NCBI GenBank assembly: GCA_948443845.1
Contig: CAOJUE010000003.1
Location: forward strand, 25,610-89,609
DNA from: an uncultured Eubacteriales bacterium
Lineage (GTDB): Bacteria > Bacillota > Clostridia > TANB77 > CAG-508
Length of the DNA stretch: 64,000 nt
Reading direction: 5' to 3'
Every line of letters begins with the position of its first letter. Position 1 is the stretch's first letter. This document shows positions 5,109 to 59,975 of the stretch, in pieces. The notes under the pieces were generated by a model. The model was not told where the DNA came from. It saw only the letters and a list, made by a program, of their open reading frames with translations, and made no database searches. The position numbers and the translations under genes are program-made.

Positions 5109-5563
5109 GGACTTGTCTCCCTAAGAATAAATAGATGACAAAAGTATCGTAAAATAAAATTGTAGTTGGTTAATTTACATATTAAGTTTCCTAAAATTTG
5201 ACAAAACTTCTGTCAAAACGACAACAAATTTTATCAAACTGTTGAAAAAAGCAGAGAAAAAAGTTAAAAATTTTTGAAAAAATGTCAAAAAAAGGTTGAG
5301 AAATAATGAAAAGTATGATATAATGAAAATAGGAACTTATGAAAATTAGGCAGAAAATGCAAAAGATAACATGTAACAAAAATTTTATATTTCGAAAACA
5401 AAGTAATCTAAGGCTTTATTTCCGTAAATAAAAAATTTTGGAACTTAAGAAAATCTATGATTATCAACAGTTTAGCCTATTGACTATGCAAAAAAAAGTA
5501 GTAAAATAGAATGTGATAATATAGTATAATTATAAGTAAAGTTTGTTTTTAGGAGGAAGAATT

Positions 5564-10651: not shown

Positions 10652-10655
10652 TCGA

Positions 10656-24202: not shown

Positions 24203-24345
24203 GGGGCGATGCCCACATCCGCCCAATAAACCAAATGCCACATCATTAATTGACCACAATTAAAATTGCACAAAGTAGGGGCACGGGGCACCGTGCTCAC
24301 CCAATCGAAATCCCAATGACCCAAAATATAAAAAGGAGGAAATCC

Positions 24346-31536: not shown

Positions 31537-31737
31537 AAAAATCATCCCCTTATTATATTATACCATTTTTATTTATTTTAGTCAAGTTTTGGAAATATTT
31601 TTCCAAAACTATCAAGAATTATGAAGTTATGGAAAAAATGTACAACATATATCATAACCATTTTCTAATATTTTATGAATTCTTATTGAAAAAACTACAA
31701 AAATAATATATAATAACGAAAAAAACGGAGAGAAAAA

Positions 31738-35660: not shown

Positions 35661-36632
35661 ATGAGTGTACAAATTATTTATTTAATCGCATCATTTCTAT
35701 TGGCAGCCATTTTAGGAAAATTAATGATTCCGATTTTGAAAAAATTGAAAGTCGGGCAAAGCGAAAGAGAAGACGGACCACGTTCCCACCTGAAAAAACA
35801 AGGAACGCCAACCATGGGTGGAATCATGATGATGATCACAATTGTTGTTTTTACATTAATTGTATATCTATTTCATTCCGATTTTGAATTTATCAAGCCA
35901 ATATTAATCATTTCAATTGCAAGTTTAGGTTTTGGGATTGTTGGATTTGTGGACGATTTCAAAAAAGTAGTTTTGCATAATACAGAAGGCTTAAATCCCA
36001 AATTGAAAATGCTTGGATTATTGATTGTATCCTGCATTTTCACAATTGTTTTAATGAATTATACGAATGTAACAACAGAAATTTTTATTCCATTTACTGA
36101 TTTTACGCTAACTTTCCCAAAATGGATTTTCATTCCATTTACGATTTTAGTTATGCTAAGTGCAACAAATGCAGTGAATTTAACAGACGGAATCGACGGT
36201 TTGGCAGCAAGTGTATCTGCGATTATGATAACCGCATTGTCAATCCTTGCAATCAAACTTGGAAATGTGGAAATATCGATATTTGGTAGCATTGTAGTGG
36301 GAACTTGTTTGGGATTTTTAGTTTATAATTTTCATAAAGCAAAAGTGATGATGGGAGATACTGGCTCCTTGCTTCTTGGTGGAGTGGTTTCAAGTATGGC
36401 AATTTATTTGCAAATTCCAATCTTTTTGTTATTAATAGCAATTATTCCAATATTGGAAACAACATCGGTTATTTTGCAAGTTTGGTATTTTAAAAGAACA
36501 GGAAAAAGACTTTTTAGAATGTCGCCATTGCATCATCATTTTGAATTAACTGGTTGGAGAGAAAATCGAGTGGTTGGCGTATTTTCACTAATTACCTTTA
36601 TTTTCTCTATCATAGGAATATTGGCAATATAA
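35661..36632 (+). CDS. mraY: phospho-N-acetylmuramoyl-pentapeptide transferase
   Basis: Polytopic membrane protein with MraY motifs (NAVNLTDGIDGLA, DTGSLLLGG). Confidence 0.85.
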   Translation: MSVQIIYLIASFLLAAILGKLMIPILKKLKVGQSEREDGPRSHLKKQGTPTMGGIMMMITIVVFTLIVYLFHSDFEFIKPILIISIASLGFGIVGFVDDFKKVVLHNTEGLNPKLKMLGLLIVSCIFTIVLMNYTNVTTEIFIPFTDFTLTFPKWIFIPFTILVMLSATNAVNLTDGIDGLAASVSAIMITALSILAIKLGNVEISIFGSIVVGTCLGFLVYNFHKAKVMMGDTGSLLLGGVVSSMAIYLQIPIFLLLIAIIPILETTSVILQVWYFKRTGKRLFRMSPLHHHFELTGWRENRVVGVFSLITFIFSIIGILAI

Positions 36633-36662
36633 AATTACCTAGAAAGGAAACTTTTAAGGAAA

Positions 36663-37829
36663 TGGCAAAAAAAGCTCAAAAAGAAAAAAAGAAATTTAGC
36701 CTTTTTACCAAAGGCTCACTCGATTACTTTATCTGGATTACCGTTATGATTTTGGTGGCTTTTGGTTTGGTTATGGTGTTATCGGCAAGCGCTCCTTCTG
36801 CTTTAGCAGAATCCAATGGAAAAAGTAGTTATGGGTACATAAGTAAACAGGCATTTTCAGCAGTTCTTGGCTTGGTCGCCATGATGGCGCTTTCGAAAGT
36901 AGATTATCATATTTATCGAAAACTAAAATGGCTTATTTATATTATTTGCATTGTTTTGCTGGTGCTTGTTGGATTTTTTGGGATAGATGCAAACCGGTGC
37001 GAAACGTTGGATTAAGATTGCAGGAATCAACTTCCAGCCTTCTGAATTTGCCAAAATTGGTTTCATCTTGTTTTTCGCTTCGCTGTTATCCGATGTCAAA
37101 GAACATGGAAAAATTAAAGATTATCGATATGGTTTCATTTATCCGATGGTATTTATGGTTCCCATTATTGGTGCTATTTTGATTTTGCAAAACCATTTTA
37201 GTGCGACATTTATTATTGCTGTTGTAACCGTTGTGCAAATGTTTGTAGCAGGCACAAAAATCACTCACTTTTTATTAACTGGACTCATTGGTGGCGTATG
37301 TGGTGCAGGTGCTCTCATGGTTAAAAACGGTGGTTCAACACTTGGTACAGACTTCAGAAGTACGAGAATCGAAACATGGCTTGACCCATTTACTGACCCA
37401 ACAGGCGATGGTTGGCAAATCATACAAAGTTGGTATGCCATTGCTTCCGGAGGCTTATTTGGAGTAGGACTTGGCAATAGCAAACAAAAATATTTATATT
37501 TGCCAGAACCACACAATGATTTCATTTTTTCTGTTTTAGCAGAAGAATTAGGCTTTGTGGGATGTGTGGTCGTTATTTTATTGTTTACTATTTTTGTGTG
37601 GAGAGGTGTTGTAATTGCCATGAAAGCACAAGACAATTTTGGTTGCCTAATTGCGATTGGAATTGTTACGATGTTGGGACTTCAAGCGATGGTTAACATT
37701 GCGGTTGTAACAGGAACGATTCCAGTAACTGGAATGCCACTACCGTTTTTTAGTTATGGTGGAACATCACTCATAGCCAATCTAATGGCAGTCGGAATCC
37801 TGCTCAACATCTCCAGAACCGCCAAGTAG
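36663..37829 (+). CDS. ftsW: FtsW/RodA/SpoVE family peptidoglycan glycosyltransferase, interrupted by a +1 frameshift (extra C) at about 36,994
   Basis: Frame A ends ...GFFGIDANRCETLD*; removing one base gives GIDANGAKRWIKIAGINFQPSEFAK, the conserved SEDS motif, which continues in ORF 36987-37829. Confidence 0.75.
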
Positions 37830-39003: not shown

Positions 39004-39083
39004 AAATTTTCATTTTCCTATTGCAAAAGTGAAAAGAAAAGAGTATACTTACTTGAATGAATAAACTTAAGAAGGAGAAAAAA

Positions 39084-41190
39084 ATGATTGATAAATTAGT
39101 GATTGTGGAGTCTCCTGCTAAGGCGAATACAATCAAAAAATTTCTTGGTGGAAAAAGTAAAGTAGTGGCATCGATGGGACATATCCGCGATTTGCCAAAA
39201 TCGAAAATGGGAGTGGATATTGAACATGATTTTGAGCCACAATATATTAATATACGCGGAAAAGCGCCACTCATTAATTCTTTAAAAAAGGAAGCCAAAA
39301 ATGCGAAACAAGTTTATCTTGCAACTGACCCTGACCGTGAAGGAGAGGCAATTGCATGGCATTTGGCGTACATTTTGGGAATTGACCCAAACTCGATTTG
39401 TCGTGTGACATTTAACGAAATCACGAAAGACGCTGTCAAAGAGGCGATTCAAAATCCAAGAAAAATCGATTTGAATTTGACGGACGCGCAGCAAGCAAGG
39501 CGCGTTTTGGACCGCATTGTTGGTTATAAAATTAGTCCAGTTTTGTGGAAAAAAGTAAAGCGTGGTTTGTCGGCAGGTAGAGTGCAGTCAGTGGCTGTTG
39601 CTTTGATTGTAAATCGTGAGGAAGAAATTGAGAAATTTGTTCCAGAAGAATATTGGAATATCAATTTGAAAGCATCTGACAAGAAAACCAAAACGAAATT
39701 TGATTGCAAATTTATTGGAAAAGATGGCAAAAAAATTGAACTTCATTCCAAAGAAGAAGTGGACAAGATTTTGGCAGATTTAGAAGGGGCAAAATACAAA
39801 GTTGTGGACATAAAAAAAGGCGAGAAAAAGCGCAATCCTGCTCCACCATTTACGACAAGTACGATGCAGCAGGAAGCGTCCAGAAAATTGAATTTTGCCA
39901 TTAAGAAGACGATGTCAGTTGCGCAAGGTTTGTATGAAGGGGTCAAATTGCCAGAACAGGGAACAACGGGTTTGATTACGTATATGAGAACTGATTCTAC
40001 TAGAATTTCGAATGAAGCAAGAGCAGCTTCGAAAGAGTATATTGTGAGAGAATATGGCGAAAAATACTACGAAAATCGTTTCTTTAAAACCAAGGCAGAA
40101 GCGCAAGATGCGCACGAAGCGATTCGTCCAACTTATGTGGAACTTGCGCCAGATAAAATCAAAGAACATTTGACGCCTGACCAATATAAATTGTACAAAT
40201 TAATCTATAATCGCTTTATTGCCAGTCAAATGACGGCTGCGGTGTATGATACACTTGCAGTTTCGATTGACGGAAATCACTACAATTTTAGGGCAAATGG
40301 GCAAACGTTGAAATTCAAAGGATTTATGACGTTGTATGTAGAGGGCGAAGACAACAAGACTGCAGAAGAATTTACGCAGATTCCAGAATTGGAAGTGGGA
40401 GAAGAGGTCAAAAAAGAGAAAATTGACAGCAAGCAAAGTTTTACAGAGCCACCACCACGTTATACGGAAGCAAGTTTGGTTAAAACATTGGAAGAAAAAG
40501 GAATTGGTAGACCGAGTACCTATGCGCCAACGATTACAACGATTTTAGCCAGAAGATATGTGGAAAAAATTCAGAAGCAATTGGCTCCAACTGATTTGGG
40601 AAGAATTGTGAATAAATTATTAATTGAGAATTTCTCAGACGTTATCAATGTGGAATTTACAGCAAAAATGGAAGAAGAATTTGACAAAGTCGCAGAACGG
40701 AAATGAAAAATGGAAGGCAGTGATCCATGAGTTTTACACACCTTTTGCAAAAATTGTGGAAAAGGTTGACAAAGAATTGGAGCATGTCAAATTAGAATAT
40801 GAAGTTTCGGATGTACCTTGTGAAAAATGTGGCAGAATGATGGTGATTAAATATGGAAAATATGGTAAGTTTTTGGCGTGTCCGGGCTACCCAGAATGTC
40901 AGAATGCGAAGCCAATTATTGAAACAATTGATGTTCCATGTCCAAAATGCGGAGGCGTGGTGCAGGTTCGAAAAACGAAGAAAAAACGTAATTATTATAT
41001 TTGTGAGAACAATTTTGAGGGAAATGAAAACAGGTGTGATTATATTTCTTGGAACAAACCAAAGCCAGGAGAGAAATTCGTGGAAGGGGAAGATGTTTCA
41101 GAGATAGAGAAGGAGACGAAGAAGGAGAGCAAGAAGAAAAGTACGACCAAGAAAAAGTCTACGACGAAAAAGAAGACGGCTAAGAAATAG
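39084..41190 (+). CDS. topA: DNA topoisomerase I with C-terminal zinc ribbons, interrupted by a +1 frameshift at about 40,697-40,700
   Basis: Toprim start MIDKLVIVESPAKA. Frame A ends ...EFDKVAERK*; a 1-nt shift continues ...GNEKWKAVIHEFYTPF and the Zn-ribbon CEKCGRMMV...CPGYPEC, CPKCGG. Confidence 0.85.
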
Positions 41191-41262
41191 GAAAATTATA
41201 AAATATCAAAACGAATGCTTTTTTCATATTATATATAAATACTATGAAAGGAGCACTTTTTT

Positions 41263-41661
41263 ATGGCAAAAATTTTAGTATACAACAGTAACTCAAACCG
41301 AATGGAAACGTATTATAGAGGGCTATCAGAGGCAATGCCGTATGTTACTAATCGAACATTAACCGTTCGAGAGTTTCGTTCAAATAGCAATACAGAAATT
41401 TTATGGACCAGCAGAAGAACTATGGAGTCATGGAACCGATTCCGAACACTTTATGGACGTTCGATTTATGTTGGATTTGCATTTAAACGTCCGTGGGAAG
41501 GTGGCCATGCGAACCAGTCACAGCATTATGCGGGTGTAGCATTTGATGTAGGACAAAATCTGTCGGCAGAAGGAAGGCTTGCGATGAGAAATTTGGCGGA
41601 AAGTTCGGGGATTTGGACGTATGTGGAAGGTGCAACACAGGTTTTGAGCAAGAAACGATAA
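41263..41661 (+). pseudogene. 5' part of a peptidase M15 (Peptidase_M15_3/VanY-like) + PG-binding cell-wall hydrolase gene, disrupted by insertion of the mobile element; 3' part at 59,686-59,975
   Basis: Zn-ligand motif SQHYAGVAFD (SxHxxGxAxD). The gene ends just after the att core and lacks the final fvHvDvR motif, which is found in frame at the right junction (WVHFDDR). Confidence 0.6.
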
Positions 41662-41784
41662 TTGAGGAAATGCTTACAGTAAAGTGCGTTTAAGGGTTAA
41701 AGAAAAAATAGAGGACAAGTTGAAAAGAGTGAATTAATTTGGGATTAATTTGCTCTTTTTTATACTGCATAGAAAGGAGTAAAA

Positions 41785-42459
41785 GTGGAGGAAAAGCAAA
41801 ATATAGGGTATTATTCTATCATACCAGCAACAATTTTGTATAATAGGGATTTAAAAGCAAATCAAAAGATTTTGTATGCAGTTATAACATCACTTAGCAA
41901 TAAGGAAGGTTATTGTTTTGCATCGAATAAATATTTAGCGGAAAAGTTGAATGTTGGAGCAAATACAGTTTCTGGTTGGATAACGGATTTGCGAAGGAAG
42001 AATTGGGTTCAAGTGGAACTGATTAGAAATGATAAACAAGAGATTATTCAGAGGAGAATTTATATAAAGGATATACCGTATAATTTTTATAAAGAATACC
42101 CCTATACGCAAAAAGAAGAAGAGGGTATTCCTCAAAAATGGGAAGAGAATAATATAATAAATAATAATATAAGCACACACACCTTATCGAAAAATCAATA
42201 TCAAGATAAGGTGTTTTTATATGAGTATGAATATGAAGATTTGGTTGAAAAATATGGGCAAGTTAAAGCAGATAAATGTATTGAAGAATTGTCTTTGTAT
42301 AAGAGATCCAAAGGTGTAGAGTATGAAAGTGATTACGATACAATTAAGAGATGGGTAATTGATAGAGTTGAAGGACAAAAGAGAAAGCCAAATAAGTTTA
42401 GAAAAACAGATTTTGAGCAGAGAGATGAAGAATTTTGGAGTAATTTTTATGATAATTAG
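41785..42459 (+). CDS. RepA_N-like replication initiator / HTH protein (GTG start)
   Basis: N-terminal IIPATILYNRDLKANQKILYAVITSL resembles the RepA_N family of Firmicutes plasmids and ICEs. Confidence 0.5.
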   Translation: MEEKQNIGYYSIIPATILYNRDLKANQKILYAVITSLSNKEGYCFASNKYLAEKLNVGANTVSGWITDLRRKNWVQVELIRNDKQEIIQRRIYIKDIPYNFYKEYPYTQKEEEGIPQKWEENNIINNNISTHTLSKNQYQDKVFLYEYEYEDLVEKYGQVKADKCIEELSLYKRSKGVEYESDYDTIKRWVIDRVEGQKRKPNKFRKTDFEQRDEEFWSNFYDN

Positions 42460-42474
42460 AAAGAGGTGGAATGT

Positions 42475-43407
42475 ATGAAAAAAGATGAAAAATTTAATCT
42501 TCCTACGTTAGATGATTTGTTTGAAAGAACGCATGGAAGTTATGTAGGGAGAATTGAAAAGATTGAGACGAAAAAATTGAATGAATTTAAAGGGCATCCC
42601 TTTAAAGTGAAAGAGAATGCAGAAATGGAACAGTTAGTCGAAAGCATAAAAGAAAATGGAGTTTTAAATCCAGTGATAGTAAGAGAATTGGAAGATGGAA
42701 GTTTTGAAATGATATCAGGGCACAGAAGAAAAAGAGCAGCAGAAATTGCAAATATGGAAGAAATACCTTGCATTGTGAGAAACTTAACAGATGAAGAGGC
42801 GACAATTTTGATGGTTGACAGCAATTTGCAAAGGGAAGAAATTTTGCCAAGTGAAAAGGCTTTTGCGTATAAAATGAAAATGGAGGCAATGAAAAGACAG
42901 GCAGGTAGACCTAGTAAAAATAATTCTGCCCCAATGGGACAGAATTTAGAAAATAAAACTACAAGAGAAAAAATTGCAGAAGAAACAGGCGAAAGTGCTA
43001 CCAATATTCAAAGATATATTAGACTGACAAATTTGATACCAGAAATATTAAATATGGTAGATGAAAAGAAAATTGCTTTTAGACCAGCAGTTGAGATTTC
43101 TTATTTGAAAGAAGATGAACAATATACATTACTGGACGCAATGCAATTTAATGATTGTACGCCATCATTGGCACAGGCAATTAGTTTGAAAAAGAGAAGT
43201 CTTGAAAATAGCTTAACGGCTGAGAAAATAGATGAAATTATGGAAGAAGAAAAGTCGAATCAGATTCCTAAATTTAAAATGAATATGGAGAAAATAGAAA
43301 GTGTACTTCCACGAAATGTTGTGAGTCAAAAGGATAGAGAAGATTTTATTATTATGTGTGTGAAAGAGCATAATAAAAGGCAGAAACAAAAAGAGTATGA
43401 CAGATAA
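42475..43407 (+). CDS. ParB/Spo0J-like nuclease-domain protein
   Basis: ParB N-domain motifs VIVRELEDGSFEMISGHRRKRAA and IPCIVRNLTDEEA. Confidence 0.7.
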   Translation: MKKDEKFNLPTLDDLFERTHGSYVGRIEKIETKKLNEFKGHPFKVKENAEMEQLVESIKENGVLNPVIVRELEDGSFEMISGHRRKRAAEIANMEEIPCIVRNLTDEEATILMVDSNLQREEILPSEKAFAYKMKMEAMKRQAGRPSKNNSAPMGQNLENKTTREKIAEETGESATNIQRYIRLTNLIPEILNMVDEKKIAFRPAVEISYLKEDEQYTLLDAMQFNDCTPSLAQAISLKKRSLENSLTAEKIDEIMEEEKSNQIPKFKMNMEKIESVLPRNVVSQKDREDFIIMCVKEHNKRQKQKEYDR

Positions 43408-52393: not shown

Positions 52394-53452
52394 ATGGATA
52401 AGAAAAAAGATTGGAATTTAGAGTTATCAGAATATATTAAACAAGGCGAACCAAATCAAGTTGAGAAAACTAAAACATGGGAAACAGCGATTGGATTGCA
52501 AGATGTTGATGGATTAAAACCTTCAAAATATTTAATAAAAACTGCTAAAGAACATATTGAAGGATCAATAGATATTGAAGAAGTCAAAGCAAGAATAGAT
52601 GAATATTATGAAGTTCAAGGCAGCAGAAAAGATTTTGAAAAAGAAAATGAAGAAGCAGATAAAGTTGCAGTTAGAATAACAGAAATATTAAGCGAAAAAG
52701 CATTCAATTTTTCTCCTACAGAACTATTGAGTATTCATAAGAGATTATTTAAAGATATATTTGATGGAGCAGGTGTATATAGAGATTATAATTTTACTAA
52801 AAAAGAATGGGTATTAAATGGAGATACAGTGATATATGCACCATTTGATACAATAAAAGAAACATTGGAATATGATTTTGAACAAGAAAAAACCTTTTCA
52901 TATAAAGGATTAAATTTAGATGAGTCTATAAGTCATCTATGCAAATTTACATCAAATATATGGCAAGTACATCCATTTTGTGAAGGCAACACAAGAACAA
53001 CAGCAGTATTTATGGTAAAATATCTAAGAACTTTTGGATTTAATATTAATGATGAAGTATTTGCAGAAAATTCATGGTATTTTAGAAATTCATTAGTAAG
53101 AGCCAATTATAAAAATTTTGAAAAAAATGTATTTGAGGATACATCATTTTTAGAAAAATTCTTTTATAACTTACTTACAAATGCTAATAATGAATTAAAA
53201 AATAGATATACACATATAGATAATATTCAAAGTGCAGAAAATGACAATTTAAAGTGCAATAATTACACTTTAGAAGAACAGGCAATTATAAATATATTAA
53301 AGAAAACCCCTGCTACTACACAAGAAGAAATAGCAATGCAAATTAATAAATCTTTAAGAACTGTAAAAACATATATGGCAGAAATGCAAGAAAAAGGGTT
53401 GATAGAAAGAATAAATGGTAAGAAGAATGGCGAATGGATAGTGAATGAGTAA
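52394..53452 (+). CDS. Fic family protein with a degenerate active-site motif (HPFCEGNTRT) and a C-terminal HTH
   Basis: Fic core HPFCEGNTRTTA (G-to-T and R-to-A relative to the HxFx(D/E)GNGRxxR consensus); C-terminal winged-helix region. Confidence 0.8.
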   Translation: MDKKKDWNLELSEYIKQGEPNQVEKTKTWETAIGLQDVDGLKPSKYLIKTAKEHIEGSIDIEEVKARIDEYYEVQGSRKDFEKENEEADKVAVRITEILSEKAFNFSPTELLSIHKRLFKDIFDGAGVYRDYNFTKKEWVLNGDTVIYAPFDTIKETLEYDFEQEKTFSYKGLNLDESISHLCKFTSNIWQVHPFCEGNTRTTAVFMVKYLRTFGFNINDEVFAENSWYFRNSLVRANYKNFEKNVFEDTSFLEKFFYNLLTNANNELKNRYTHIDNIQSAENDNLKCNNYTLEEQAIINILKKTPATTQEEIAMQINKSLRTVKTYMAEMQEKGLIERINGKKNGEWIVNE

Positions 53453-53474
53453 TTTTATAATATAAAGCAAAAGT

Positions 53475-53702
53475 GTGAAAATGACTTTTAATCTAAAGAG
53501 TCAAACTTCACACTTCTTACAATTTTACCACAAAGTAAGAAAAACTATAAATGGAAAGCTAGTAACCTTTATAGAGGTTATGGAATGTGATGTGTTTGGT
53601 GTAGAAGAAATGGTATATGGGGATTATTTAAATAAGTTTCCCGTAACCCCCGAAAATCACAGTAAAAATATATCAGTAGAAGAAATAGAATTACCATTTT
53701 AG
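53475..53702 (+). CDS. hypothetical small protein
   Basis: 75-aa ORF; no recognisable domain. Confidence 0.3.
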   Translation: MKMTFNLKSQTSHFLQFYHKVRKTINGKLVTFIEVMECDVFGVEEMVYGDYLNKFPVTPENHSKNISVEEIELPF

Positions 53703-53821
53703 AAGCCTTTATAGATAAGGTTTCTTTTTATGTGCATAAAGTTTTATATAAATTAGCATAAATATAGATTTTTATTATAAATGTGATAAAATATAGAAAA
53801 CAAAAAAGTAGGTGATAAAAT

Positions 53822-54658
53822 ATGAAATTTATATATGCATGTGATATACATGGAGATACAAATAAATATGAAAAATTATTTCAAAAGGCGAAGGAAGAAA
53901 ATATTAAATACATAGTTTTAGGAGGAGATATACTACCTAAGAGAGGATTTAGAGTAATAATACAGCCTGAATTTATAAAAGGATATTTAGAAGAATATTT
54001 TAAAAGATTGAATGAAAATGATATAAATTGTATATTAATTCCTGGTAATGACGACTTAGAAAAATTTGATATACAAATAAATGAACTTTGCAAAAAATAT
54101 CCTAATATATACAATATTGATGAGAAAAAATTAGATATAGAAGATGTAAGTTTTATAGGATTATCAAAAGTATTAGATCATCCATTTGGAAGTAAAAATA
54201 GGGTAGTAATAGAAGAAAATTTGAAAATGCAGTCACAATTATCTGAAGATATTTATATAAAAAAAGATACAGCAGTCATTACAATTGAAGAATGGGAAAG
54301 ATATAGAGAAACTGATATTGAAAGAATGGAAGATATATTAACTAGTTTACCAAAAGTAGATAAAAATAGAAAGGTTATATATGTATTGCACAATCCACCA
54401 TATGGAGTCGGATTAGATGTATGTGCGAATGGATTACAAGTGGGTTCAAAAGCAATAATGAAATTTTTAGAAAATAGTAATAGTTATATGTCATTGCATG
54501 GACATATACACGAAGCACCTAGAATCTCTGGGCTATGGTATAATGAACTGGGGAAAACGATTTGTATACAACCAGGACAAACAGAACTAGGAGAAAGAAA
54601 ATGTTACTATGTTATAATAGATACAGAGCTAAACGAACAATATAGATATGAAATGTGA
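53822..54658 (+). CDS. metallophosphoesterase (calcineurin-like phosphoesterase)
   Basis: MPE motifs DIHGD, GGD, GNDD, HNPP, GHIH. Confidence 0.75.
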   Translation: MKFIYACDIHGDTNKYEKLFQKAKEENIKYIVLGGDILPKRGFRVIIQPEFIKGYLEEYFKRLNENDINCILIPGNDDLEKFDIQINELCKKYPNIYNIDEKKLDIEDVSFIGLSKVLDHPFGSKNRVVIEENLKMQSQLSEDIYIKKDTAVITIEEWERYRETDIERMEDILTSLPKVDKNRKVIYVLHNPPYGVGLDVCANGLQVGSKAIMKFLENSNSYMSLHGHIHEAPRISGLWYNELGKTICIQPGQTELGERKCYYVIIDTELNEQYRYEM

Positions 54659-54674
54659 TAGGAGAAATGTTTAA

Positions 54675-55499
54675 ATGATGAAGTTAGAAGAATATATTGA
54701 AAAACGAAAAAAAGAAGATGGATTGAATGAATTTGATAAAAATAAGAAAGATGAAAACATCAAAATATGTGTAAATTATATTTTTGAGTATTTTAATAAT
54801 TATTTAAATATTACAGAATTAGAAGAAATAACAATAGCTAAGGAAGAAAAGTTAGATAAATATTGCAAGCAATTAAAAGAGTATGACTCAGATATAAAAG
54901 AATGGCTAGTAAAGATATATGCTGAATATGGGAACTTTTTGGATAAATCAATAGGTAGAAGAGTTAGAAATGAACAAACTTATTTTTATTTGCTAAGTGA
55001 AGATAGTGAATTCAGAAGTTTATCTTATGAGTGTTATGCTGAATATATAAAGAAATTTCCATATTTAAAAGGACAAGAAGAGATGTTATACAAATTTTTA
55101 AAAGAATATCATAGAGTAGAAAGTAATCAATCTTTATGGAATATTCCAATAATAAACGAAGAAATAGATGAGTGGATAGAGACAACGAAAAATAAATATG
55201 GAGTAAACTTGTATCAATTTGCTTCTAATTGGGTAAATTATTTTTTTGATACACCAGAAATATGGGGAACGAAACATAGAAAGAAAAATAATGATGCATA
55301 TAAGGGATATGAATATGATTATAAAAATGGTGATAATTTATTTAATATAGACTCACTATATAGAAATATGCCAAAAAAACCATTTACAAAAGGGAAAAAA
55401 CAAGAATTTGAAATATTACTTATGTATTATTGGTTAAATGATATAGTAGGCGATGATGATAATTATTGGGATGAATATTTAAAAAAATTTGAAAAATAA
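54675..55499 (+). CDS. hypothetical protein, probably co-transcribed with the metallophosphoesterase
   Basis: 274-aa ORF 16 nt downstream; no recognisable domain. Confidence 0.5.
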   Translation: MMKLEEYIEKRKKEDGLNEFDKNKKDENIKICVNYIFEYFNNYLNITELEEITIAKEEKLDKYCKQLKEYDSDIKEWLVKIYAEYGNFLDKSIGRRVRNEQTYFYLLSEDSEFRSLSYECYAEYIKKFPYLKGQEEMLYKFLKEYHRVESNQSLWNIPIINEEIDEWIETTKNKYGVNLYQFASNWVNYFFDTPEIWGTKHRKKNNDAYKGYEYDYKNGDNLFNIDSLYRNMPKKPFTKGKKQEFEILLMYYWLNDIVGDDDNYWDEYLKKFEK

Positions 55500-55575
55500 A
55501 TTTTATAAATTTAAGAAATACTATTGATAAATAAAATTTTTTATAATAAAATGTGACCAAAGGAGGCGAGGTATA

Positions 55576-56019
55576 ATGGTAGATATTAATGAATTAGCAA
55601 ATGAATTTCTTGCAATAGAAAGCATGACACAAAAGAAAGTACAGAAGTTATGCTATTATGCACAAGGTTGGTATGGTGCTATTACACAAAAGAGACTATT
55701 TAATGAACAACTACAAGCATGGGTTCACGGACCTGTTTCGCCTAAATTATATGATAGATTTAAAATGTATGGATATAATAAAATACCTCAAAAAGAATCT
55801 AGAACTACAAATGAAGAATTAAAAGGAATAGTAAAAGAAATATATAGAATATATGGAAAATTAGACGGAGATCAACTTGAAGAATTAACTCATCAAGAAA
55901 TGCCATGGATAAATGCAAGAGAAGGATTAGAAGCTCACGAATCATCAACCAACCCAATAAAATTTGATGATATGGTAAACTTCTTTAAAACAAAACTATT
56001 AGAAGAATCAAATGCCTAA
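55576..56019 (+). CDS. Panacea (DUF4065, SocA/PanA-like) antitoxin-domain protein
   Basis: KLCYYAQGWYGAITQKRLFNEQLQAWVHGPVSPKLY matches the Panacea domain core; overlaps the next gene by 8 nt. Confidence 0.65.
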   Translation: MVDINELANEFLAIESMTQKKVQKLCYYAQGWYGAITQKRLFNEQLQAWVHGPVSPKLYDRFKMYGYNKIPQKESRTTNEELKGIVKEIYRIYGKLDGDQLEELTHQEMPWINAREGLEAHESSTNPIKFDDMVNFFKTKLLEESNA

Positions 56020-56653
56020 ATTTAATGAACAAAAACTAAAGGCTATTCCAGAAGCAAAACCACCAAAGAATAATGTAGTAGGTACATTAAGTAGATTAAC
56101 AGAAGAAAATGCAGGTGAAATTGAAAATAGAAAAATAAAAATATCCTTTGAATTTTTCGATTCTAAAAACAAATATTTTTCATTAGGTGATATAGAAATA
56201 GAATGGTTTTCAGATTTGTTTGAAGAATTAAAAGAATTATCTAAGATTACAAAAAAACAGCTGTTTACGGAATATAAAAAGAAATATAAACCACATCCAT
56301 ATAACAATGAAAAAGCATTAAATTATAAGGATGAGTATTTAACTAATCCTCAATATGATGGAGTACAAATAAGACTGGACAAGTCATCGGGAAGGATACA
56401 TGGTTTTTTTATAGAAAATGTTTACTACATAAGATTTTTAGATAGAAGGCATAATATGTACAATTCAGAGGGATATGGAGGCGTAGTATTTGTACCATTT
56501 CCAAAGACAATAGTAGAAAAATTAGAAGATGAAAATAAAGAACAAAGACAGAAAATTATTTTTTTACAAGAAAGAAATGAAAGAAATGCAGAAATTTTAT
56601 GTAATAATTGCTTAAACTGTCCGAAAGAAATACAGAATAAATTTGAATTATAG
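56012..56653 (+). CDS. putative toxin partner of the Panacea antitoxin (unknown family; possible HEPN-like Rx5H)
   Basis: Translationally coupled to the upstream Panacea gene; RFLDRRH candidate motif; 213 aa. Confidence 0.45.
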   Translation: MPKFNEQKLKAIPEAKPPKNNVVGTLSRLTEENAGEIENRKIKISFEFFDSKNKYFSLGDIEIEWFSDLFEELKELSKITKKQLFTEYKKKYKPHPYNNEKALNYKDEYLTNPQYDGVQIRLDKSSGRIHGFFIENVYYIRFLDRRHNMYNSEGYGGVVFVPFPKTIVEKLEDENKEQRQKIIFLQERNERNAEILCNNCLNCPKEIQNKFEL

Positions 56654-56677
56654 GATGAGGCAACTCATCTTTTTTTC
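56654..56677 (+). terminator. rho-independent terminator
   Basis: gatgag-gcaa-ctcatc hairpin followed by a T8 run, directly after the stop. Confidence 0.7.
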
Positions 56678-56840
56678 TATGTTTTCTTTGTCACACTTTG
56701 GTCACACTCACCATAAAAATAGCAACTTTTTTCAATATGAGGAATAAATGTTTATTGAAATCACCAAATATTAGATTTTTTCTAGATTCGTAATATAAAT
56801 TTTTATTTTAACATTTTAAAGTACAATTCTATAAAACGAT

Positions 56841-56890
56841 CTATAAGTTCCAAAAAGTTAGTTCAGCATATGGTTTTTTGGAACTTATAG
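56841..56890. repeat. 16-bp perfect inverted repeat (ctataagttccaaaaa / tttttggaacttatag) with an 18-nt spacer
   Basis: Seen directly in non-coding DNA inside the element. Confidence 0.6.
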
Positions 56891-57101
56891 GTCAATTTCA
56901 TTTTTCTATAAAAAATTACTTCGATATTCTAGAAACACAAATATTTCGTAAATTAAAATTCTTATAAATACTTAAATGCCACTCAAAACATAGAAGAAAA
57001 ATCTTTTATGTTTTATTTTTTGCAGATTTTTTAGAAAAATGGGTTCAAAAATAGTCTTTAAGTGAGGAAACATATGAAGGAAATTTAAAAAATTAAAAAA
57101 G

Positions 57102-57480
57102 ATTTCAATTTACTAACAAGAAATGCTACCCTAAAGTGCTTTATAAGTAGAGGGGTATTTTTCAAAAAATAAAAAAATTTCTAAAATAACCTAAAAAATG
57201 GTGTGTGAAAGTGCTTTACAAGTAGGGGGAATATATTTTTTCTAAAATATATAAAAAATTTCAATTTACTAACAAGAAATGCTACCCTAAAGTGCTTTAT
57301 AAGTAGAGGGGGATTTTTCAAAAAAATAAAAAAATTTCTAAAATGACTTAAAAAATGGGGTGTGAAAGTGCTTTACAAGTAGGAGAGATATATTTTTTTC
57401 TAAAATATATAGGAAATTTTAAATTAGGGGTAAAAAACGTATGTCTAAATTGCTTTACAGTTAGAGGGGTAAATTTTTTA
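57102..57480. repeat. tandem direct repeat, ~157-bp unit x2.4; each unit has two copies of a GTGCTTTAYAAGTAGRGGGG + T-run submotif (5 submotif copies in total)
   Basis: Units at 57102 and 57258 are about 95% identical; submotif starts at 57136, 57211, 57293, 57368 and 57450 (spacing 75/82 nt). Confidence 0.8.
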
Positions 57481-57718
57481 GTAATTTGAAAATACATCCT
57501 TATATAAAAATGCACATTGAAAACTAAATAAAAATCATTAAATACACTCAAAGAAACTCTTATTCAGTCATAGCACGAGCGCGATAAAACCGTCCCACGC
57601 GGTGAGAATAAGTCTGATGATCAGATAGGTGAAACTCCTGAGGGCTTGACCAAGCCGTTTAATGATTACAGTAATTATTATTTTTATTTGAAATATATTT
57701 GAAATAGAGGTGTTTCAT

Positions 57719-57901
57719 TTGAAGAAAGAATACAAATTGGAAACAAACGAAAATGGGCAAAAAGTTATAAAAAAATTTTGCCAAGAAAATACCGAAGAAA
57801 TCAATATTATTTTTGAAGAAAGTGAAACAGATATTATGTCCGATATTCTAAAACAATTGTCGAAATATTATATTGAAGAAATCTTGAAAATGGAAATGTG
57901 A
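57719..57901 (+). CDS. hypothetical small acidic protein upstream of the recombinase (non-ATG start; possible accessory or directionality factor)
   Basis: 60-aa ORF with RBS agaggtg then TTG. Confidence 0.25.
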   Translation: MKKEYKLETNENGQKVIKKFCQENTEEINIIFEESETDIMSDILKQLSKYYIEEILKMEM

Positions 57902-57979
57902 AAATAGCGATAAAAGAGAAAATTTGCACATTTCTAAAAGCGAAAAATAAATGCTATTCTAAAAGAAAGGGGGAAAACA

Positions 57980-59683
57980 ATGAAAAGAGTTCGATGTTTA
58001 TATAGAGTATCAACTGTGAAACAGTTGGATAAAAACGACATTCCAATGCAAAGAATTGAATGTATGAAATATATAGAAATGATGTCAGATTGGGAATTTG
58101 ACAAAGAATACATTGAGAAAGGCGTATCAGGCTACAATAAAAAATTGGAAGACAGAGATGTTTTGCAAGAAATCCGAACCGATGCTATCAAGAAAGAATT
58201 TGATGTTTTGCTAGTATTTATGTTTGATAGGCTCGGAAGAAGAGATGACGAAACTCCTTTCATTGTAGAATGGTTTGATGAACACGGTATCGAAGTATGG
58301 TCGACGCAGGAAGGTCAGCAAAAGTTCGAATCACGAGCAGACAAATTGATCAACTATATAAGATATTGGCAATCTGGTGGCGAAAGCGAAAAAACTTCGA
58401 TAAGGGTTCGAACAAAGCAAAGGCAAATGATTGAGCAAGGCATTAATATCAGTTCCGTTCCTCCTTATGGTTATAGAATGATCAAAACTGGAATTCTCAC
58501 GAAACGAGGTGTGGAGCGAAAAACGTATGAAATCGTGCCGACTGAGGCAGAAATTGTAAGAAAAATATTTGATTTATTTACCGAAGAGGGCTATGGCGGA
58601 ATGCGAATTGCCAAATACCTGAATGAGAAAGGATACAAAACGCACAAAGGTTGCGAGTGGAGTTACAGCACGATTAATAATATGCTTCGAAATCCAATTT
58701 ACACAGGATATTTGTGTTTTCACAAAACGAGTGTGCCAATTGGTGGTGGAAAGCGAAAAAGAGTGTCTAATAGAGAAGATTGGATTTATTCAACGGATAA
58801 AATTCCAGAAATTCAAATTATCTCAGAAGAACAATTTGAAAAAGTGCAAAAAATCAAAAAGGCAAGATGTGATAAAAATAAACAATGTGAAGAAGAAAAT
58901 AAGGAATGTTTCAGTTATCAAACCAAAGGAGATATGCTTTTTACTGGGCTGATTGTGTGTGGTGGTTGTGGCTCGAAACTAACGACTAGAACCTCGAAAA
59001 GAACAATAAAATTGGAAGATGGAAGCAAAGGATATACAAGATATAAATATTATATGTGCAGTCATAAGGCTTGTGGCAGGGAGTGCAGTTGTCAGAAGAA
59101 AAGTCATAAAAATAATTGCATAGAAGAACCTGTTTTGAATGAAATTTACAAATATTTTGATTTACTAGAAAAACGAGATTTGTCAGAATACATAAGAAAA
59201 ATTCATAAAAATACAAATGATAACGAAGGAAAGCAAATTAAAGAATTGGAGAAAAATATAAAAGAATATGCCAATAAAAATGATTTGCTAAAAGAAGAAA
59301 TTATGAATGTGATAACAGGGAAAAGTACGTTTTCGCGAGAATTAATTTCTGAATTAATGGAAGAAAATAAACAAAAGATAGAAGATTTTCAAAAACAAAA
59401 GATAAGATTAGAGCAGTTAAAAAAGCAAAAAGAAGTAGATTTTGAACAAATGCTAAAAATGAAAAGTATGATTCCAGATTGGAAAGAAGTTTTAAAAAAT
59501 TGTAGTATAGAAAGGAAAAAAATGATATTATCAGCGATGATAAAAGAAATTATCGTTTATGATCAAAAAATCGATATTCATTTAAGAATTAGTTTTGACG
59601 AATTCTTGCGAACAGCACAAAAACTGGGTTCTGAGAAGAATAGCAAATTTGCTAAAAACCTGTGTAACACGAGAACCAATTAA
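57980..59683 (+). CDS. large serine recombinase (TnpX/TndX-type)
   Basis: Resolvase N-domain with catalytic Ser in RVSTVKQ; recombinase domain; Cys-rich zinc ribbon CGGCGSKL...C..C; coiled-coil C-terminus. The last 4 codons lie beyond the att core. Confidence 0.85.
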   Translation: MKRVRCLYRVSTVKQLDKNDIPMQRIECMKYIEMMSDWEFDKEYIEKGVSGYNKKLEDRDVLQEIRTDAIKKEFDVLLVFMFDRLGRRDDETPFIVEWFDEHGIEVWSTQEGQQKFESRADKLINYIRYWQSGGESEKTSIRVRTKQRQMIEQGINISSVPPYGYRMIKTGILTKRGVERKTYEIVPTEAEIVRKIFDLFTEEGYGGMRIAKYLNEKGYKTHKGCEWSYSTINNMLRNPIYTGYLCFHKTSVPIGGGKRKRVSNREDWIYSTDKIPEIQIISEEQFEKVQKIKKARCDKNKQCEEENKECFSYQTKGDMLFTGLIVCGGCGSKLTTRTSKRTIKLEDGSKGYTRYKYYMCSHKACGRECSCQKKSHKNNCIEEPVLNEIYKYFDLLEKRDLSEYIRKIHKNTNDNEGKQIKELEKNIKEYANKNDLLKEEIMNVITGKSTFSRELISELMEENKQKIEDFQKQKIRLEQLKKQKEVDFEQMLKMKSMIPDWKEVLKNCSIERKKMILSAMIKEIIVYDQKIDIHLRISFDEFLRTAQKLGSEKNSKFAKNLCNTRTN

Positions 59684-59685
59684 TT

Positions 59686-59975
59686 TAACCCCTCGATGGG
59701 TTCACTTTGACGACAGAACAACAGCAGCAGGCTATCCAACAGTTCGTTATGGTAGTAAAGGAAATTATGTCTGTGTAGCACAAGATTCATTAAATGCTTT
59801 AGGCTATGGAACAGGAGGACTAGATGGCATATTTGGAACACAAACCAGAAATGCAGTTTTAACTTTCCAGAGCAGAAATGGCTTATCAGCAGATGGAATC
59901 TTAGGACCAAATACTTGGAGCAGATTGATGCCACAAGTAAATGGGATTGGAAGAGCTAGTACAGTTGTGAATTAA
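59686..59975 (+). pseudogene. 3' part of the insertion-disrupted peptidase M15 / PG_binding_1 cell-wall hydrolase gene
   Basis: In-frame WVHFDDR (M15_3 C-terminal motif), then the PG_binding_1 domain GYGTGGLDGIFGTQTRNAVLTFQSRNGLSADGILGPNTW. No start of its own; continuous with 41263-41638 across the att core. Confidence 0.6.

What the first reader, a model, noticed from the sequence alone, without database searches (positions are those of the whole stretch)
41263..59975. ~18-kb serine-recombinase element inserted inside a peptidase-M15/PG-binding cell-wall hydrolase gene, with a palindromic att core
The 132-aa ORF at 41263-41661 carries the SxHxxGxAxD zinc motif of Peptidase_M15_3 but stops prematurely. 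Some 18 kb downstream, just after the recombinase gene, an ATG-less frame encodes WVHFDDR (the missing M15_3 C-terminal motif) followed by a PG_binding_1 domain. Both junctions share AACAC (41634-41638 and 59666-59670). Joining the flanks gives ...IWTYVEGATREPINLTPRWVHFDDRTT... in frame. Joining the element ends gives gctaaaaacctgtgt-a-acacaggttttgagc, a near-perfect palindrome typical of a serine-recombinase attP. Inside the element are RepA_N-like, ParB-like and TnpV-like genes and a large serine recombinase, but no relaxase or T4SS genes, so it is probably an integrative (possibly mobilizable) element of the Tn4451/TnpV lineage. The AT content of the cargo is higher than that of the flanks.
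Basis: partly seen in the sequence, partly recalled or inferred. Interest (0 to 1): 0.85.

Follow-up and report, generated by a model that had tools for sequence, protein, structure and literature searches.

The report
Serine-recombinase defence island splitting hydrolase gene
An 18-kb mobile DNA cassette full of anti-phage defence genes has been inserted by its own serine recombinase into one exact spot of a conserved cell-wall hydrolase gene of a gut Clostridium; relatives with other defence genes sit at the same spot in other species, so this is a clear but fairly ordinary example of a known kind of element.

Summary
Uninterrupted homologues of the split gene (221-225 aa, up to 88% identical) and empty-site DNA show the crossover lies in a shared GAA (41626-41628 and 59673-59675), not in AACAC. 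The element is 18,047 bp (41628-59674). Its reconstructed attP is a 46-bp imperfect palindrome (17 of 22 per arm) centred on the dinucleotide GA.

The target is a chromosomal gene next to topA and dxr. It encodes a zinc peptidase of the LAS fold plus a PG_binding_1 domain. It does not reach the Pfam threshold for Peptidase_M15_3. The insertion separates the HxxxxxxD zinc ligands from the third histidine.

The cargo is anti-phage defence: Dodola (DolA/DolB) plus candidate systems, and a SocA-type antitoxin next to an unassigned ORF. There is also a replication-initiator/ParB/TnpV module. No relaxase, T4SS or virion genes were found.

Seventeen related recombinase loci from other Clostridia MAGs all sit at the same codon. 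Complete elements are 5.7-18 kb and carry type I or II restriction-modification, Gabija, a PARIS-like pair or Dodola.

The recombinase is not TnpX-like (23% identity, no DUF4368). I found no excised circle and no empty site in the same species. Verdict: new member of a known kind, moderate interest.

The parts
41263..41628 (+). 5' part of the target gene, codons 1-122. It encodes most of the LAS-fold zinc peptidase domain, with the H88/D95 ligands. The called ORF runs on to 41661, adding 10 element-encoded residues before a stop.
   Evidence: tblastn and alignment with uninterrupted homologues; invariant H82/H88/D95; LAS fold
41604..41649 (+). attL: attB left arm 41604-41625, crossover dinucleotide GA 41626-41627 (shared GAA 41626-41628), attP right arm AGGTGCAACACAGGTTTTGAGC 41628-41649
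   Evidence: Empty-site alignment; same junction in L006-8 and L015; symmetry scan
41628..59674 (+). The integrated element, 18,047 bp, counting one copy of the GA core
   Evidence: Breakpoints; low GC
41785..42459 (+). Replication-initiator/DnaD-like protein (HTH_36)
   Evidence: Pfam HTH_36 1e-13; PHROG replication initiation protein 4e-18; 79% aa identity to the homologue in L019
42466..43407 (+). ParB-like protein (ParB_N + HTH_ParB); no ParA partner was identified
   Evidence: Pfam 5e-20; TIGR00180 above its cut-off; PHROG 4e-54
43517..44213 (+). TnpV-domain protein (43517-43906) and DUF6664 protein (43869-44213)
   Evidence: Pfam TnpV 5e-39, DUF6664 5e-11
44784..48408 (+). Candidate defence block: DUF3427+NOV_C nuclease-like protein (44784-45797), 102-aa unknown, MazG-like (46105-46422), Schlafen-group-3/DUF2075 helicase (46435-48408)
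   Evidence: Pfam; PADLOC PDC-S36 2e-35 and PD-T4-1 1e-19, weak AbiO/Nhi; the 44365-46467 module is shared at 93% nt with L014
48766..50037 (+). KAP-family P-loop NTPase (candidate defence gene PDC-S20)
   Evidence: Pfam KAP_NTPase 7e-32; PADLOC PDC-S20 1e-38
50158..52123 (+). Dodola defence system: DolA (DUF6414, 50158-51003) and DolB (AAA+ ATPase, 50984-52123)
   Evidence: PADLOC DolA 4e-79, DolB 1e-136; Pfam; shared at 82% nt with L018
52394..53452 (+). Fic/DOC + winged-helix protein (candidate defence gene PDC-S72)
   Evidence: Pfam Fic 2e-12; PADLOC PDC-S72 3e-126; 90-95% aa identity in L005, L009, L011, L012 and L014
53822..55499 (+). Metallophosphoesterase (53822-54658) and a 274-aa protein with no family hit (54675-55499)
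   Evidence: Pfam Metallophos 4e-14; no hits for the 274-aa ORF
55576..56653 (+). SocA/Panacea-domain antitoxin (55576-56019) overlapping a 213-aa ORF of unknown family (56012-56653). Reading this as a toxin-antitoxin pair is an inference from the adjacency.
   Evidence: Pfam SocA_Panacea 4e-20; NCBIfam SocA below cut-off; weak MAG6450 match for the partner ORF
57118..57468 (+). Array of five ~37-nt direct repeats spaced about 78 bp apart (core AAAGTGCTTTAYAAGTAG). Iteron- or centromere-like; this role is inferred.
   Evidence: 5 matches against 0.16 expected; also present in L009 and in diverged form in L016-19 and L021; absent from the elements that lack the Rep/ParB module (L006-8, L014, L015)
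57510..57672 (+). Conserved, relatively GC-rich non-coding block upstream of the recombination genes. Possible structured RNA or DNA site.
   Evidence: 85-96% nt identity over the aligned portion in 11 loci, higher than the LSR gene in most of them, especially the diverged clade; predicted 4-way junction with a 50-nt insertion inside a hairpin loop in L013/L014; z = -1.79; no Rfam match
57710..57901 (+). Small acidic ORF (63 aa, pI 4.8), always 83-158 bp upstream of the LSR gene. Candidate accessory or directionality factor (inferred).
   Evidence: Alignment across lineages; present in 15 of the 16 loci that include sequence upstream of the LSR gene; 71 clusters, no Pfam domain
57980..59683 (+). 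Large serine recombinase, 567 aa, with the catalytic motif YRVSTVKQ (Ser11). The last two codons and the stop lie in host DNA beyond the crossover.
   Evidence: Pfam Resolvase/Recombinase/Zn_ribbon_recom; homologue lengths of 567-595 aa vary with the host flank; the circular-form tail would be 21 aa
59651..59696 (+). attR: attP left arm GCTAAAAACCTGTGTAACACGA 59651-59672, crossover GA 59673-59674 (shared GAA 59673-59675), attB right arm 59675-59696
59673..59975 (+). 3' part of the target gene (codon 122 to the stop): third zinc ligand (WVHFD) and the PG_binding_1 domain

Best explanation
This is an 18,047-bp integrative genomic island. It was inserted by its own large serine recombinase (LSR) into a fixed site (codon 122, GAA) of a conserved chromosomal gene, and it serves as a carrier of anti-phage defence genes.

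Shown:
- The LSR gene lies at the right end of the element.
- The element ends, when joined, form a 46-bp imperfect inverted repeat centred on GA.
- The same GA(A) lies at both junctions and in the empty sites of related genomes.
- Insertion splits the zinc site of a LAS-fold peptidase/PG_binding_1 protein.
- Related recombinases in at least 15 other host backgrounds sit at exactly the same position, with different and partly shuffled defence cargo.

Inferred:
- Integration was attP x attB recombination with a 2-bp staggered cut at GA.
- Excision, if it still happens, needs the LSR plus a directionality factor. The best candidate is the conserved 63-aa acidic protein encoded just upstream.
- Excision would restore the hydrolase gene exactly.
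- The replication-initiator/ParB pair and the five-repeat array maintain the excised circle.
- Transfer between cells relies on helpers (transduction, conjugative mobilisation or transformation), because the element has no transfer genes.
For: - Junctions and empty sites.
- Same codon in 17 LSR loci (L005-L021), which carry at least 15 distinct flank sequences.
- attP symmetry of 17/22 only at GA, against 2 of 63,940 positions across the window.
- LSR domain architecture.
- Chromosomal flanks (murE, mraY, ftsW/spoVE, murG, topA on one side; dxr and mntP on the other).
- Cargo: Dodola (DolA 4e-79, DolB 1e-136), PDC-S72, PDC-S20, PDC-S36.
- Relatives carry type I R-M + HEC-06 (L015), type II R-M + Tmn (L019), Gabija (L017), PDC-M46B (L016); Fic + AAA_15/DUF4435 (L006-8); and Dodola (L018).
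- Cargo modules are shared piecemeal between elements.
- LSR nt identity (90-94% and 81-82%) exceeds that of the target gene (80-87% and 68-75%) and of dxr (77-80%).
- GC is 23-29% over most of the cargo, against 31-39% in the flanks.
- L013 holds a scar in which an LSR 3' end abuts an element left end, so the two ends were once joined.
Against: - There is no direct evidence of current mobility. The exact attP 30-mer is absent from IMG/VR and from JGI metagenome contigs. The exact reconstructed attB is absent from JGI metagenomes.
- Every same-species contig whose sequence reaches the junction (identical Dxr protein) is occupied.
- The transfer route is unknown.
- The roles of the small ORF, the repeat array and the non-coding block are inferred from position and conservation only.
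- Most defence assignments other than Dodola are PADLOC 'candidate' families that have not been tested experimentally.
Confidence: 0.85

Rival explanations
1. A developmentally regulated gene-intervening element, like skin in sigK, SPbeta in spsM or gin in gerE. The island stays in the germ line and is excised by the LSR plus a directionality factor in a terminally differentiated cell, such as the sporulating mother cell. Excision rebuilds a hydrolase that is needed only there.
For: - The insertion disrupts the coding region of a widely conserved gene, and excision would restore it exactly.
- The element is not a prophage and carries an LSR plus a conserved small partner ORF, as gin carries GirC/GirX (PMC5595907).
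- All informative same-species contigs are occupied, as expected for a germ-line-fixed element.
- By inspection, the target protein has no N-terminal signal peptide, and residues 2-8 form a strand of the fold.
- Its PG_binding_1 domain most resembles those of SleB, SleC and CtpB.
- An invariant TTTCATAnnATATA box about 30 nt upstream of the ATG resembles the CATA-type -10 box of sporulation sigma factors. That comparison is from memory of the B. subtilis consensus and was not tested.
Against: - There is no evidence that the target is a sporulation gene or that the host sporulates. The ftsW/spoVE call is ambiguous.
- I saw no sporulation-type promoter upstream of the small ORF or the LSR gene, by inspection only.
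- Most homologues in the database are uninterrupted.
- The variable defence cargo and the shuffled modules fit a mobile island better than a fixed developmental switch.
Confidence: 0.12
2. An integrative mobilisable element of the Tn4451/Tn4453 (TnpX/TnpV) family. It would move by TnpX-type transposition and conjugative mobilisation.
For: There is a TnpV-domain gene (5e-39). The crossover is at a GA dinucleotide. TndX targets always contain a central GA (PMC4430133), and Tn4451 recombines at 2-bp identical cores (PMC5704250).
Against: - The LSR is 23% identical to the DUF4368-type LSR of a TnpV/Mob/TnpW module and lacks DUF4368.
- No Mob/Pre relaxase or TnpW was found.
- TnpV is missing from the complete family members L006-8, L014 and L015.
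- Targeting is strictly site-specific, whereas Tn4451 has low specificity (PMC5704250).
Confidence: 0.05
3. A decayed prophage, phage satellite or integrated plasmid that merely happens to carry defence genes.
For: Replication-initiator and ParB-like genes hit phage and plasmid families. There is an iteron-like repeat array. The nearest LSR relatives in the phage collection are unannotated 'Bacteriophage sp.' contigs from human faeces, at 35% identity.
Against: - No capsid, terminase, portal, tail, lysis, primase or packaging gene turned up in any ORF.
- Complete relatives are as small as 5.66 kb and hold only the LSR, the small ORF and defence genes.
- The exact attP junction 30-mer is absent from IMG/VR; the LSR itself was not searched there.
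Confidence: 0.05
4. An immobilised relic. The element integrated once in an ancestor and is now fixed, and the LSR no longer works on attL x attR. This concerns present activity only and is compatible with the best explanation for the element's origin.
For: Every same-species contig whose sequence reaches the junction is occupied, and no circle junction was found. L013 shows that att sites can be deleted.
Against: - The LSR ORF is intact and has the catalytic serine motif.
- Both att half-sites are intact.
- The recombination module is more conserved than the host genes across species.
- Cargo turnover at the same site in many hosts implies repeated recombination.
Confidence: 0.15

Closest known systems
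Staphylococcal/enterococcal cassette chromosomes (SCCmec, ECC) moved by Ccr large serine recombinases
   Same: Non-conjugative, non-phage cassettes that one LSR system inserts at a single chromosomal site. Cargo is highly variable and mosaic, and the cassettes have no transfer machinery of their own. CcrB is the best NCBIfam match for this LSR (1e-34).
   Different: The CcrB score is 120 bits against a cut-off of 900, so this is not a Ccr. SCC inserts at the 3' end of rlmH without inactivating it, whereas this element splits the catalytic domain of its target. The cargo here is phage defence, not resistance. There is one LSR plus a small ORF rather than a ccrAB pair.
Gene-intervening elements of spore formers: skin (SpoIVCA, in sigK), SPbeta (SprA/SprB, in spsM), gin (GirC/GirX, in gerE) (PMC5595907, PMC5499854, PMC4191935)
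   Same: LSR-mediated insertion inside a coding region, with exact restoration on excision. gin is likewise not a prophage and uses an LSR plus a small directionality factor.
   Different: The target here is not known to be a sporulation gene, and no developmental excision has been shown. The elements are variable defence carriers found at one site across many species.
Tn4451/Tn4453 and Tn5397 (TnpX and TndX large resolvases)
   Same: Clostridial LSR elements with a GA crossover dinucleotide (PMC4430133). A TnpV-domain gene is present in the window element.
   Different: 23% identity to a DUF4368-type LSR and no DUF4368 domain. No Mob relaxase. Strict site specificity instead of loose targeting.
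Serine-integrase prophages and LSR islands catalogued for genome engineering (PMC10083194)
   Same: An attP of about 46 bp with imperfect dyad symmetry around a non-palindromic central dinucleotide, and a short attB inside a conserved gene.
   Different: No phage genes. The LSR stop codon lies beyond the crossover, so its C-terminal tail changes with the host flank and between the integrated and circular forms.

Membership tests
Large-serine-recombinase integrative elements | Recombinase with Resolvase catalytic domain + Recombinase domain + zinc-ribbon domain and an N-terminal catalytic serine | tested here: met
   Pfam PF00239 1.5e-17, PF07508 1.2e-26, PF13408 1.6e-9; YRVSTVKQ motif at residues 8-15
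Large-serine-recombinase integrative elements | attP of about 40-50 bp with imperfect dyad symmetry around a 2-bp crossover that is identical in attB | tested here: met
   17/22 complementary positions per arm, only when centred on GA; GAA is shared by attL, attR and the empty sites
Large-serine-recombinase integrative elements | Uninterrupted attB in related genomes | tested here: met
   L001-L004 carry the intact gene; in blastn against L004 the flank matches end at window 41628 and begin at window 59672
Large-serine-recombinase integrative elements | Excised circular form or reversible excision | tested here: inconclusive
   No exact attP or attB match in IMG/VR or JGI metagenome contigs; same-species contigs that reach the junction are all occupied; an attP scar in L013 shows that the ends were once joined
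Tn4451/Tn4453 mobilisable transposons | TnpX-type LSR (with the C-terminal DUF4368 domain) | tested here: not met
   No DUF4368 hit at E <= 1; 23% identity to the DUF4368 LSR of a TnpV/Mob/TnpW module on CP123681.1. Tn4451 itself was not compared.
Tn4451/Tn4453 mobilisable transposons | TnpZ (Mob/Pre) relaxase and oriT for mobilisation | tested here: not met
   No relaxase family in any element ORF
Tn4451/Tn4453 mobilisable transposons | TnpV gene and GA crossover | tested here: met
   TnpV 4.7e-39; GA centre
Sporulation gene-intervening elements (skin/SPbeta/gin) | Target is a sporulation-specific gene and excision is developmentally timed | not testable with these tools
   Only indirect hints: no signal peptide by inspection, a SleB/SleC-like PG_binding_1 domain, and a conserved CATA-type box
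SCC-type cassette chromosomes | Ccr-family recombinase and insertion at rlmH | tested here: not met
   CcrB 120 bits and CcrC 87 bits against a cut-off of 900; the target is a LAS/PG_binding_1 gene
Peptidase_M15_3 (the target gene) | Pfam PF08291 at its gathering threshold | tested here: not met
   No hit on the full-length protein; on the N-domain alone E 0.025, 15.1 bits against a cut-off of 23.2
LAS (Hedgehog/DD-peptidase fold) zinc peptidases (the target gene) | H-x6-D plus a downstream His as zinc triad, on the LAS fold | tested here: met
Dodola anti-phage system (cargo) | Adjacent DolA (DUF6414) and DolB (ClpB-like AAA+) genes | tested here: met
   DolA 4e-79 over the full model, DolB 1e-136 over the full model, in overlapping genes 50158-52123

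The most novel reading that the evidence does not exclude
The family is a 'regulated gene integrity' switch. The defence island is kept in the germ line inside a signal-peptide-less LAS peptidase gene. The LSR plus the 63-aa protein excise it only in a terminal cell state, such as the sporulating mother cell or a stressed or infected cell. Excision rebuilds an autolysin while the lineage keeps its defence cargo. A weaker version is that the conserved non-coding block upstream of the small ORF is a new structured RNA that controls excision.
Probability: 0.12. Interest if true: 0.7.

Novelty: new member of a known kind. Interest (0 to 1): 0.42.

Why it matters
- It gives a precisely mapped attP/attB pair (46-bp attP, GA core). 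Their LSR has no match above 36% identity in the annotated plasmid and phage collections searched here, so it could be tried as an integration tool.
- It defines a defence-island hotspot in gut Clostridia that is created by a dedicated recombinase rather than by a phage or an ICE. Complete elements can be as small as 5.7 kb.
- Because the same site holds Dodola, Gabija, restriction-modification systems, Tmn, a PARIS-like pair and several untested candidate genes, the family is a useful place to look for new defence systems.
- It is also a plausible, still untested, case of a reversible gene disruption.

Tried and rejected
- AACAC as the crossover was rejected. It adds 5 residues that are absent from all homologues, and it gives an odd-centred palindrome.
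- Pfam on the joined protein gave no peptidase hit, so I used a structure model and fold searches instead.
- An HMM of the target family against PDB sequences gave only sub-threshold Hedgehog-N matches for the N-domain.
- Rfam found nothing, either at gathering thresholds on the whole window or at E <= 5 on 56650-57990. No tRNA genes were found.
- Exact attP searches in IMG/VR and JGI metagenomes, and an exact attB search in JGI metagenomes, found nothing.
- A search for an empty site in the same species, using the identical Dxr protein, found only occupied sites.
- A prophage or satellite reading was rejected for lack of any virion or packaging gene.
- Tn4451 membership was rejected.
- I tried to decide whether the host sporulates from the spoVD/spoVE models. 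The result was ambiguous: pbp2/mrdA passes its cut-off, and the split ftsW/spoVE gene is undecided.
- RNAalifold on the conserved non-coding block gave a plausible fold, but only 1 compensatory pair. The sequences are too similar to test covariation.

Full report
**1. Observation**

- ORF 41263-41661 (132 aa) contains SQHYAGVAFD.
- After the recombinase gene, a frame without a start codon encodes ...PRWVHFDDR... followed by a PG_binding_1 domain.
- AACAC occurs at both stated positions, and the proposed join is in frame.
- The recombinase at 57980-59683 has the full large-serine-recombinase (LSR) architecture.
- GC falls to 23-29% over roughly 43-58 kb, against 31-39% outside the element.

**2.

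The joined protein finds more than 2,700 homologues. The best are 221-225 aa, cover 100% of the query and are up to 88% identical.
- A contig with the uninterrupted gene (L004) matches the window up to 41628 and again from 59672.
- The four-way DNA alignment shows attL tracking the empty site up to GAA and attR tracking it from GAA.
- The shared sequence is therefore GAA (41626-41628 and 59673-59675), and the element is 18,047 bp (41628-59674).

Joining the true ends gives GCTAAAAACCTGTGTAACACGA-GA-AGGTGCAACACAGGTTTTGAGC.
- A symmetry scan scores 17 of 22 complementary positions only when centred on that GA. Every neighbouring centre scores 9 or less. Only 2 of 63,940 positions in the whole window reach 17.
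Deleting the 15 bp between them produced an odd-centred palindrome, which a 2-bp staggered cut does not fit.
- The direct AACAC repeat is part of a half-site motif (TGnGTnnCAC) that occurs in both arms.

**3. The target gene and its setting**

The flanks are ordinary chromosome. Upstream lie mreC, mreD, pbp2, minC, and then murE, mraY, ftsW/spoVE, murG and topA. Downstream lie dxr and mntP. The element is therefore not nested in a phage, plasmid or ICE.

Pfam sees only PG_binding_1 in the restored protein. The N-domain alone gives Peptidase_M15_3 at E 0.025, which is 15.1 bits against a cut-off of 23.2.

Fold and motif evidence is stronger.
- An AlphaFold2 model built from 42 homologues is confident (pLDDT 92.9).
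- H88, D95 and H132 are invariant.

The gene therefore encodes a LAS-type zinc peptidase with a peptidoglycan-binding domain. It is not a Pfam-level member of M15_3. The insertion lies between D95 and H132, so it removes one zinc ligand and the binding domain. By inspection the protein has no N-terminal signal sequence.

**4. Content of the element**

From the left end:
- a replication-initiator/DnaD-like protein (HTH_36; PHROG 4e-18);
- a ParB-like protein;
- TnpV and a DUF6664 protein.

The cargo that follows is a defence island:
- DUF3427+NOV_C (PDC-S36 / PD-T4-1-like), MazG-like, and a Schlafen-group-3/DUF2075 helicase;
- a KAP NTPase (PDC-S20);
- Dodola, with DolA at 4e-79 and DolB at 1e-136;
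- a Fic protein (PDC-S72, 3e-126);
- a metallophosphoesterase plus an unknown 274-aa protein;
- a SocA/Panacea antitoxin next to an unassigned 213-aa ORF, which may be its toxin (inferred from the adjacency).

The right end holds four features:
- five ~37-nt direct repeats about 78 bp apart;
- a conserved non-coding block (57510-57672);
- a 63-aa acidic ORF;
- the LSR gene.

No relaxase, coupling protein, T4SS, capsid, terminase or lysis gene was found.

**5. It is one of a family with a single target**

The LSR has 4,847 database relatives. I examined 17 loci with 81-96% identical recombinases. They come from metagenome contigs and from MAGs labelled uncultured Clostridium or Clostridia, including mouse-gut MAGs.
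- In all 17, the 3' fragment of the same gene, starting at residue ~122, directly follows the LSR.
- The junction always reads ...GTAACAnnn|GAACC....
- The left junction is visible in L006-8, where the element is only about 5.66 kb, in L015 (about 10.5 kb) and in L014. It lies at the same codon.

Cargo differs from locus to locus:
- type I R-M plus HEC-06 (L015);
- type II R-M plus Tmn, with the Rep/ParB/TnpV module (L019);
- Gabija, with GajA at 1e-240 and GajB at 4e-196 (L017);
- PDC-M46B (L016);
- Fic plus an AAA_15/DUF4435 pair that resembles PARIS (L006-8);
- Dodola (L018).

Individual modules of the window element recur singly in different relatives. The Fic gene is 90-95% identical at the protein level in five loci. 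The 44365-46467 block is in L014, Dodola in L018 and the left module in L019. Cargo has therefore been exchanged between elements.

The recombinase is more similar between hosts (90-94% or 81-82% nt) than the target gene (80-87% or 68-75%) or dxr (77-80%). This fits horizontal spread, although stronger purifying selection on the LSR could contribute.

The 63-aa ORF sits 83-158 bp upstream of the LSR gene in 15 of the 16 loci that include sequence upstream of the LSR gene. It belongs to a small family of 71 clusters with no known domain.

**6. Mechanism**

Shown:
- a site-specific insertion at a GA core within a fixed codon;
- half-sites with dyad symmetry;
- an intact LSR with the catalytic serine motif.

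Inferred:
- attP x attB integration by the LSR alone, as is established for serine integrases;
- excision needing a directionality factor, for which the conserved small acidic ORF is the obvious candidate;
- maintenance of the excised circle by the Rep-like and ParB-like proteins acting on the repeat array.

The array is present where that module is seen (the window and L019). It is absent from the elements whose left junction is in view and that lack the module (L006-8, L014, L015). Transfer between cells must use outside help.

One curious detail: the LSR reading frame crosses the crossover. Its last two residues and its stop codon are host-encoded in the window. Its length varies from 567 to 595 aa among hosts. 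The circular form would encode a different 21-residue tail.

**7. Evidence for present-day mobility is lacking**

- The exact attP and attB junction sequences are absent from the collections I could scan.
- Thirteen contigs (L022-L034) recovered with the identical LSR or Dxr protein, hence probably from the same species, include none with an empty site. All that reach the junction are occupied.
- The one positive trace is in L013. There, the 3' end of an LSR gene abuts the left-end sequence of an element, with about 52 bp, the attP core, deleted between GCAAA microhomologies. That shows the two ends were once joined, either in a circle or in a tandem array.

**8. Comparison with known systems**

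Functionally the family behaves most like SCC-type cassette chromosomes: a recombinase-defined single site, variable mosaic cargo and no transfer genes. It fails the membership test, with CcrB at 120 bits against a cut-off of 900 and a different target that is disrupted rather than preserved.

- The LSR is 23% identical to a DUF4368-type LSR that sits next to TnpV, Mob and TnpW genes, and it has no DUF4368 domain.
- There is no Mob relaxase.
- Target specificity is strict, whereas Tn4451 has low specificity (PMC5704250).
- Only TnpV and the GA core are shared (PMC4430133).

The skin/SPbeta/gin class (PMC5595907, PMC5499854, PMC4191935) shares the in-gene insertion, the LSR-plus-small-factor arrangement and, for gin, the non-phage nature. 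Whether this target is a developmental gene cannot be decided here. The hints are the lack of a signal peptide, a PG_binding_1 domain closest to those of SleB, SleC and CtpB, and an invariant TTTCATAnnATATA box about 30 nt upstream of the start codon. I give this reading about 0.12.

**9. Verdict**

The finding is real and well supported once the junction is corrected. It is a new member, and in fact a whole uncharacterised family, of a known kind: LSR-borne genomic islands. It has a clean attP/attB pair and a clear role as a defence-gene carrier at a dedicated hotspot in gut Clostridia. It is useful and tidy rather than surprising. Interest is about 0.4.

Noticed in passing
window 57118-57468: Five ~37-nt direct repeats about 78 bp apart (a 156-bp unit x 2.2), each with the near-palindromic core TAAAGTGCTTTA. 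L009 also has five copies, and diverged copies occur in L016-19 and L021. The array was seen only where a Rep/ParB module is present or where the left end is out of view, so it may be iterons or a centromere.
   Followed up: partly
window 57510-57672; L009, L011-L014, L016-L019, L021: A non-coding block more conserved over its aligned portion (85-96% nt) than the adjacent LSR gene in most loci. It is predicted to form a four-way junction closed by an 11-bp stem. L013 and L014 carry a 50-nt insertion inside one hairpin loop. There is no Rfam match and only 1 compensatory pair. It may be a new regulatory RNA or part of a replication origin.
   Followed up: partly
L013 997-1530: An attP 'scar': 190 bp of an LSR 3' end is joined to the left-end sequence of an element, and the ~52-bp attP core is precisely deleted between GCAAA microhomologies. 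This is a relic of a tandem or circular junction.
   Followed up: partly
window 57980-59683: The LSR reading frame crosses the crossover. Its last two codons and stop are host DNA, homologue lengths vary with the host flank (567-595 aa), and the circular form would encode a 21-aa alternative tail (RCNTGFEQETIIEEMLTVKCV).
   Followed up: yes
window 41225-41240; alignment A6: An invariant TTTCATAnnATATA box about 30 nt upstream of the target gene's ATG in six diverged homologues, while the rest of the upstream region diverges. It resembles the CATA-type -10 boxes of sporulation sigma factors (comparison from memory).
   Followed up: no
window 36554-37829; 39057-41190; 21453-22395; 24250-26203: Several conserved genes appear split into two overlapping ORFs: ftsW/spoVE, topA (an essential gene), a Na/Ca exchanger and a NuoF-like hydrogenase subunit. 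This suggests frameshift errors in the assembly rather than pseudogenes.
   Followed up: partly
L025-L034 (contigs encoding the identical Dxr protein): No empty site was seen in this species. Three contigs end inside or just after the LSR 3' end, as if the assembly graph branches there, possibly because several element variants share the LSR end.
   Followed up: partly
window 5543-17036: Two very large adjacent ORFs (1,702 and 2,130 aa). The first carries DUF11 and SdrD_B repeats; the second has only weak sub-threshold matches. They are probably cell-surface proteins and are unrelated to the element.
   Followed up: no
window 22379-23479 (-) and 30334-31545 (-): A second Fic-domain gene and an AAA_14/DUF4143 ATPase lie in the chromosome outside the element.
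   Followed up: no
L010 132-1328 (-): This is the one related locus without the small ORF. A 398-aa reverse-strand ORF directly abuts the LSR gene. It may be an insertion or deletion and was not examined.
   Followed up: no
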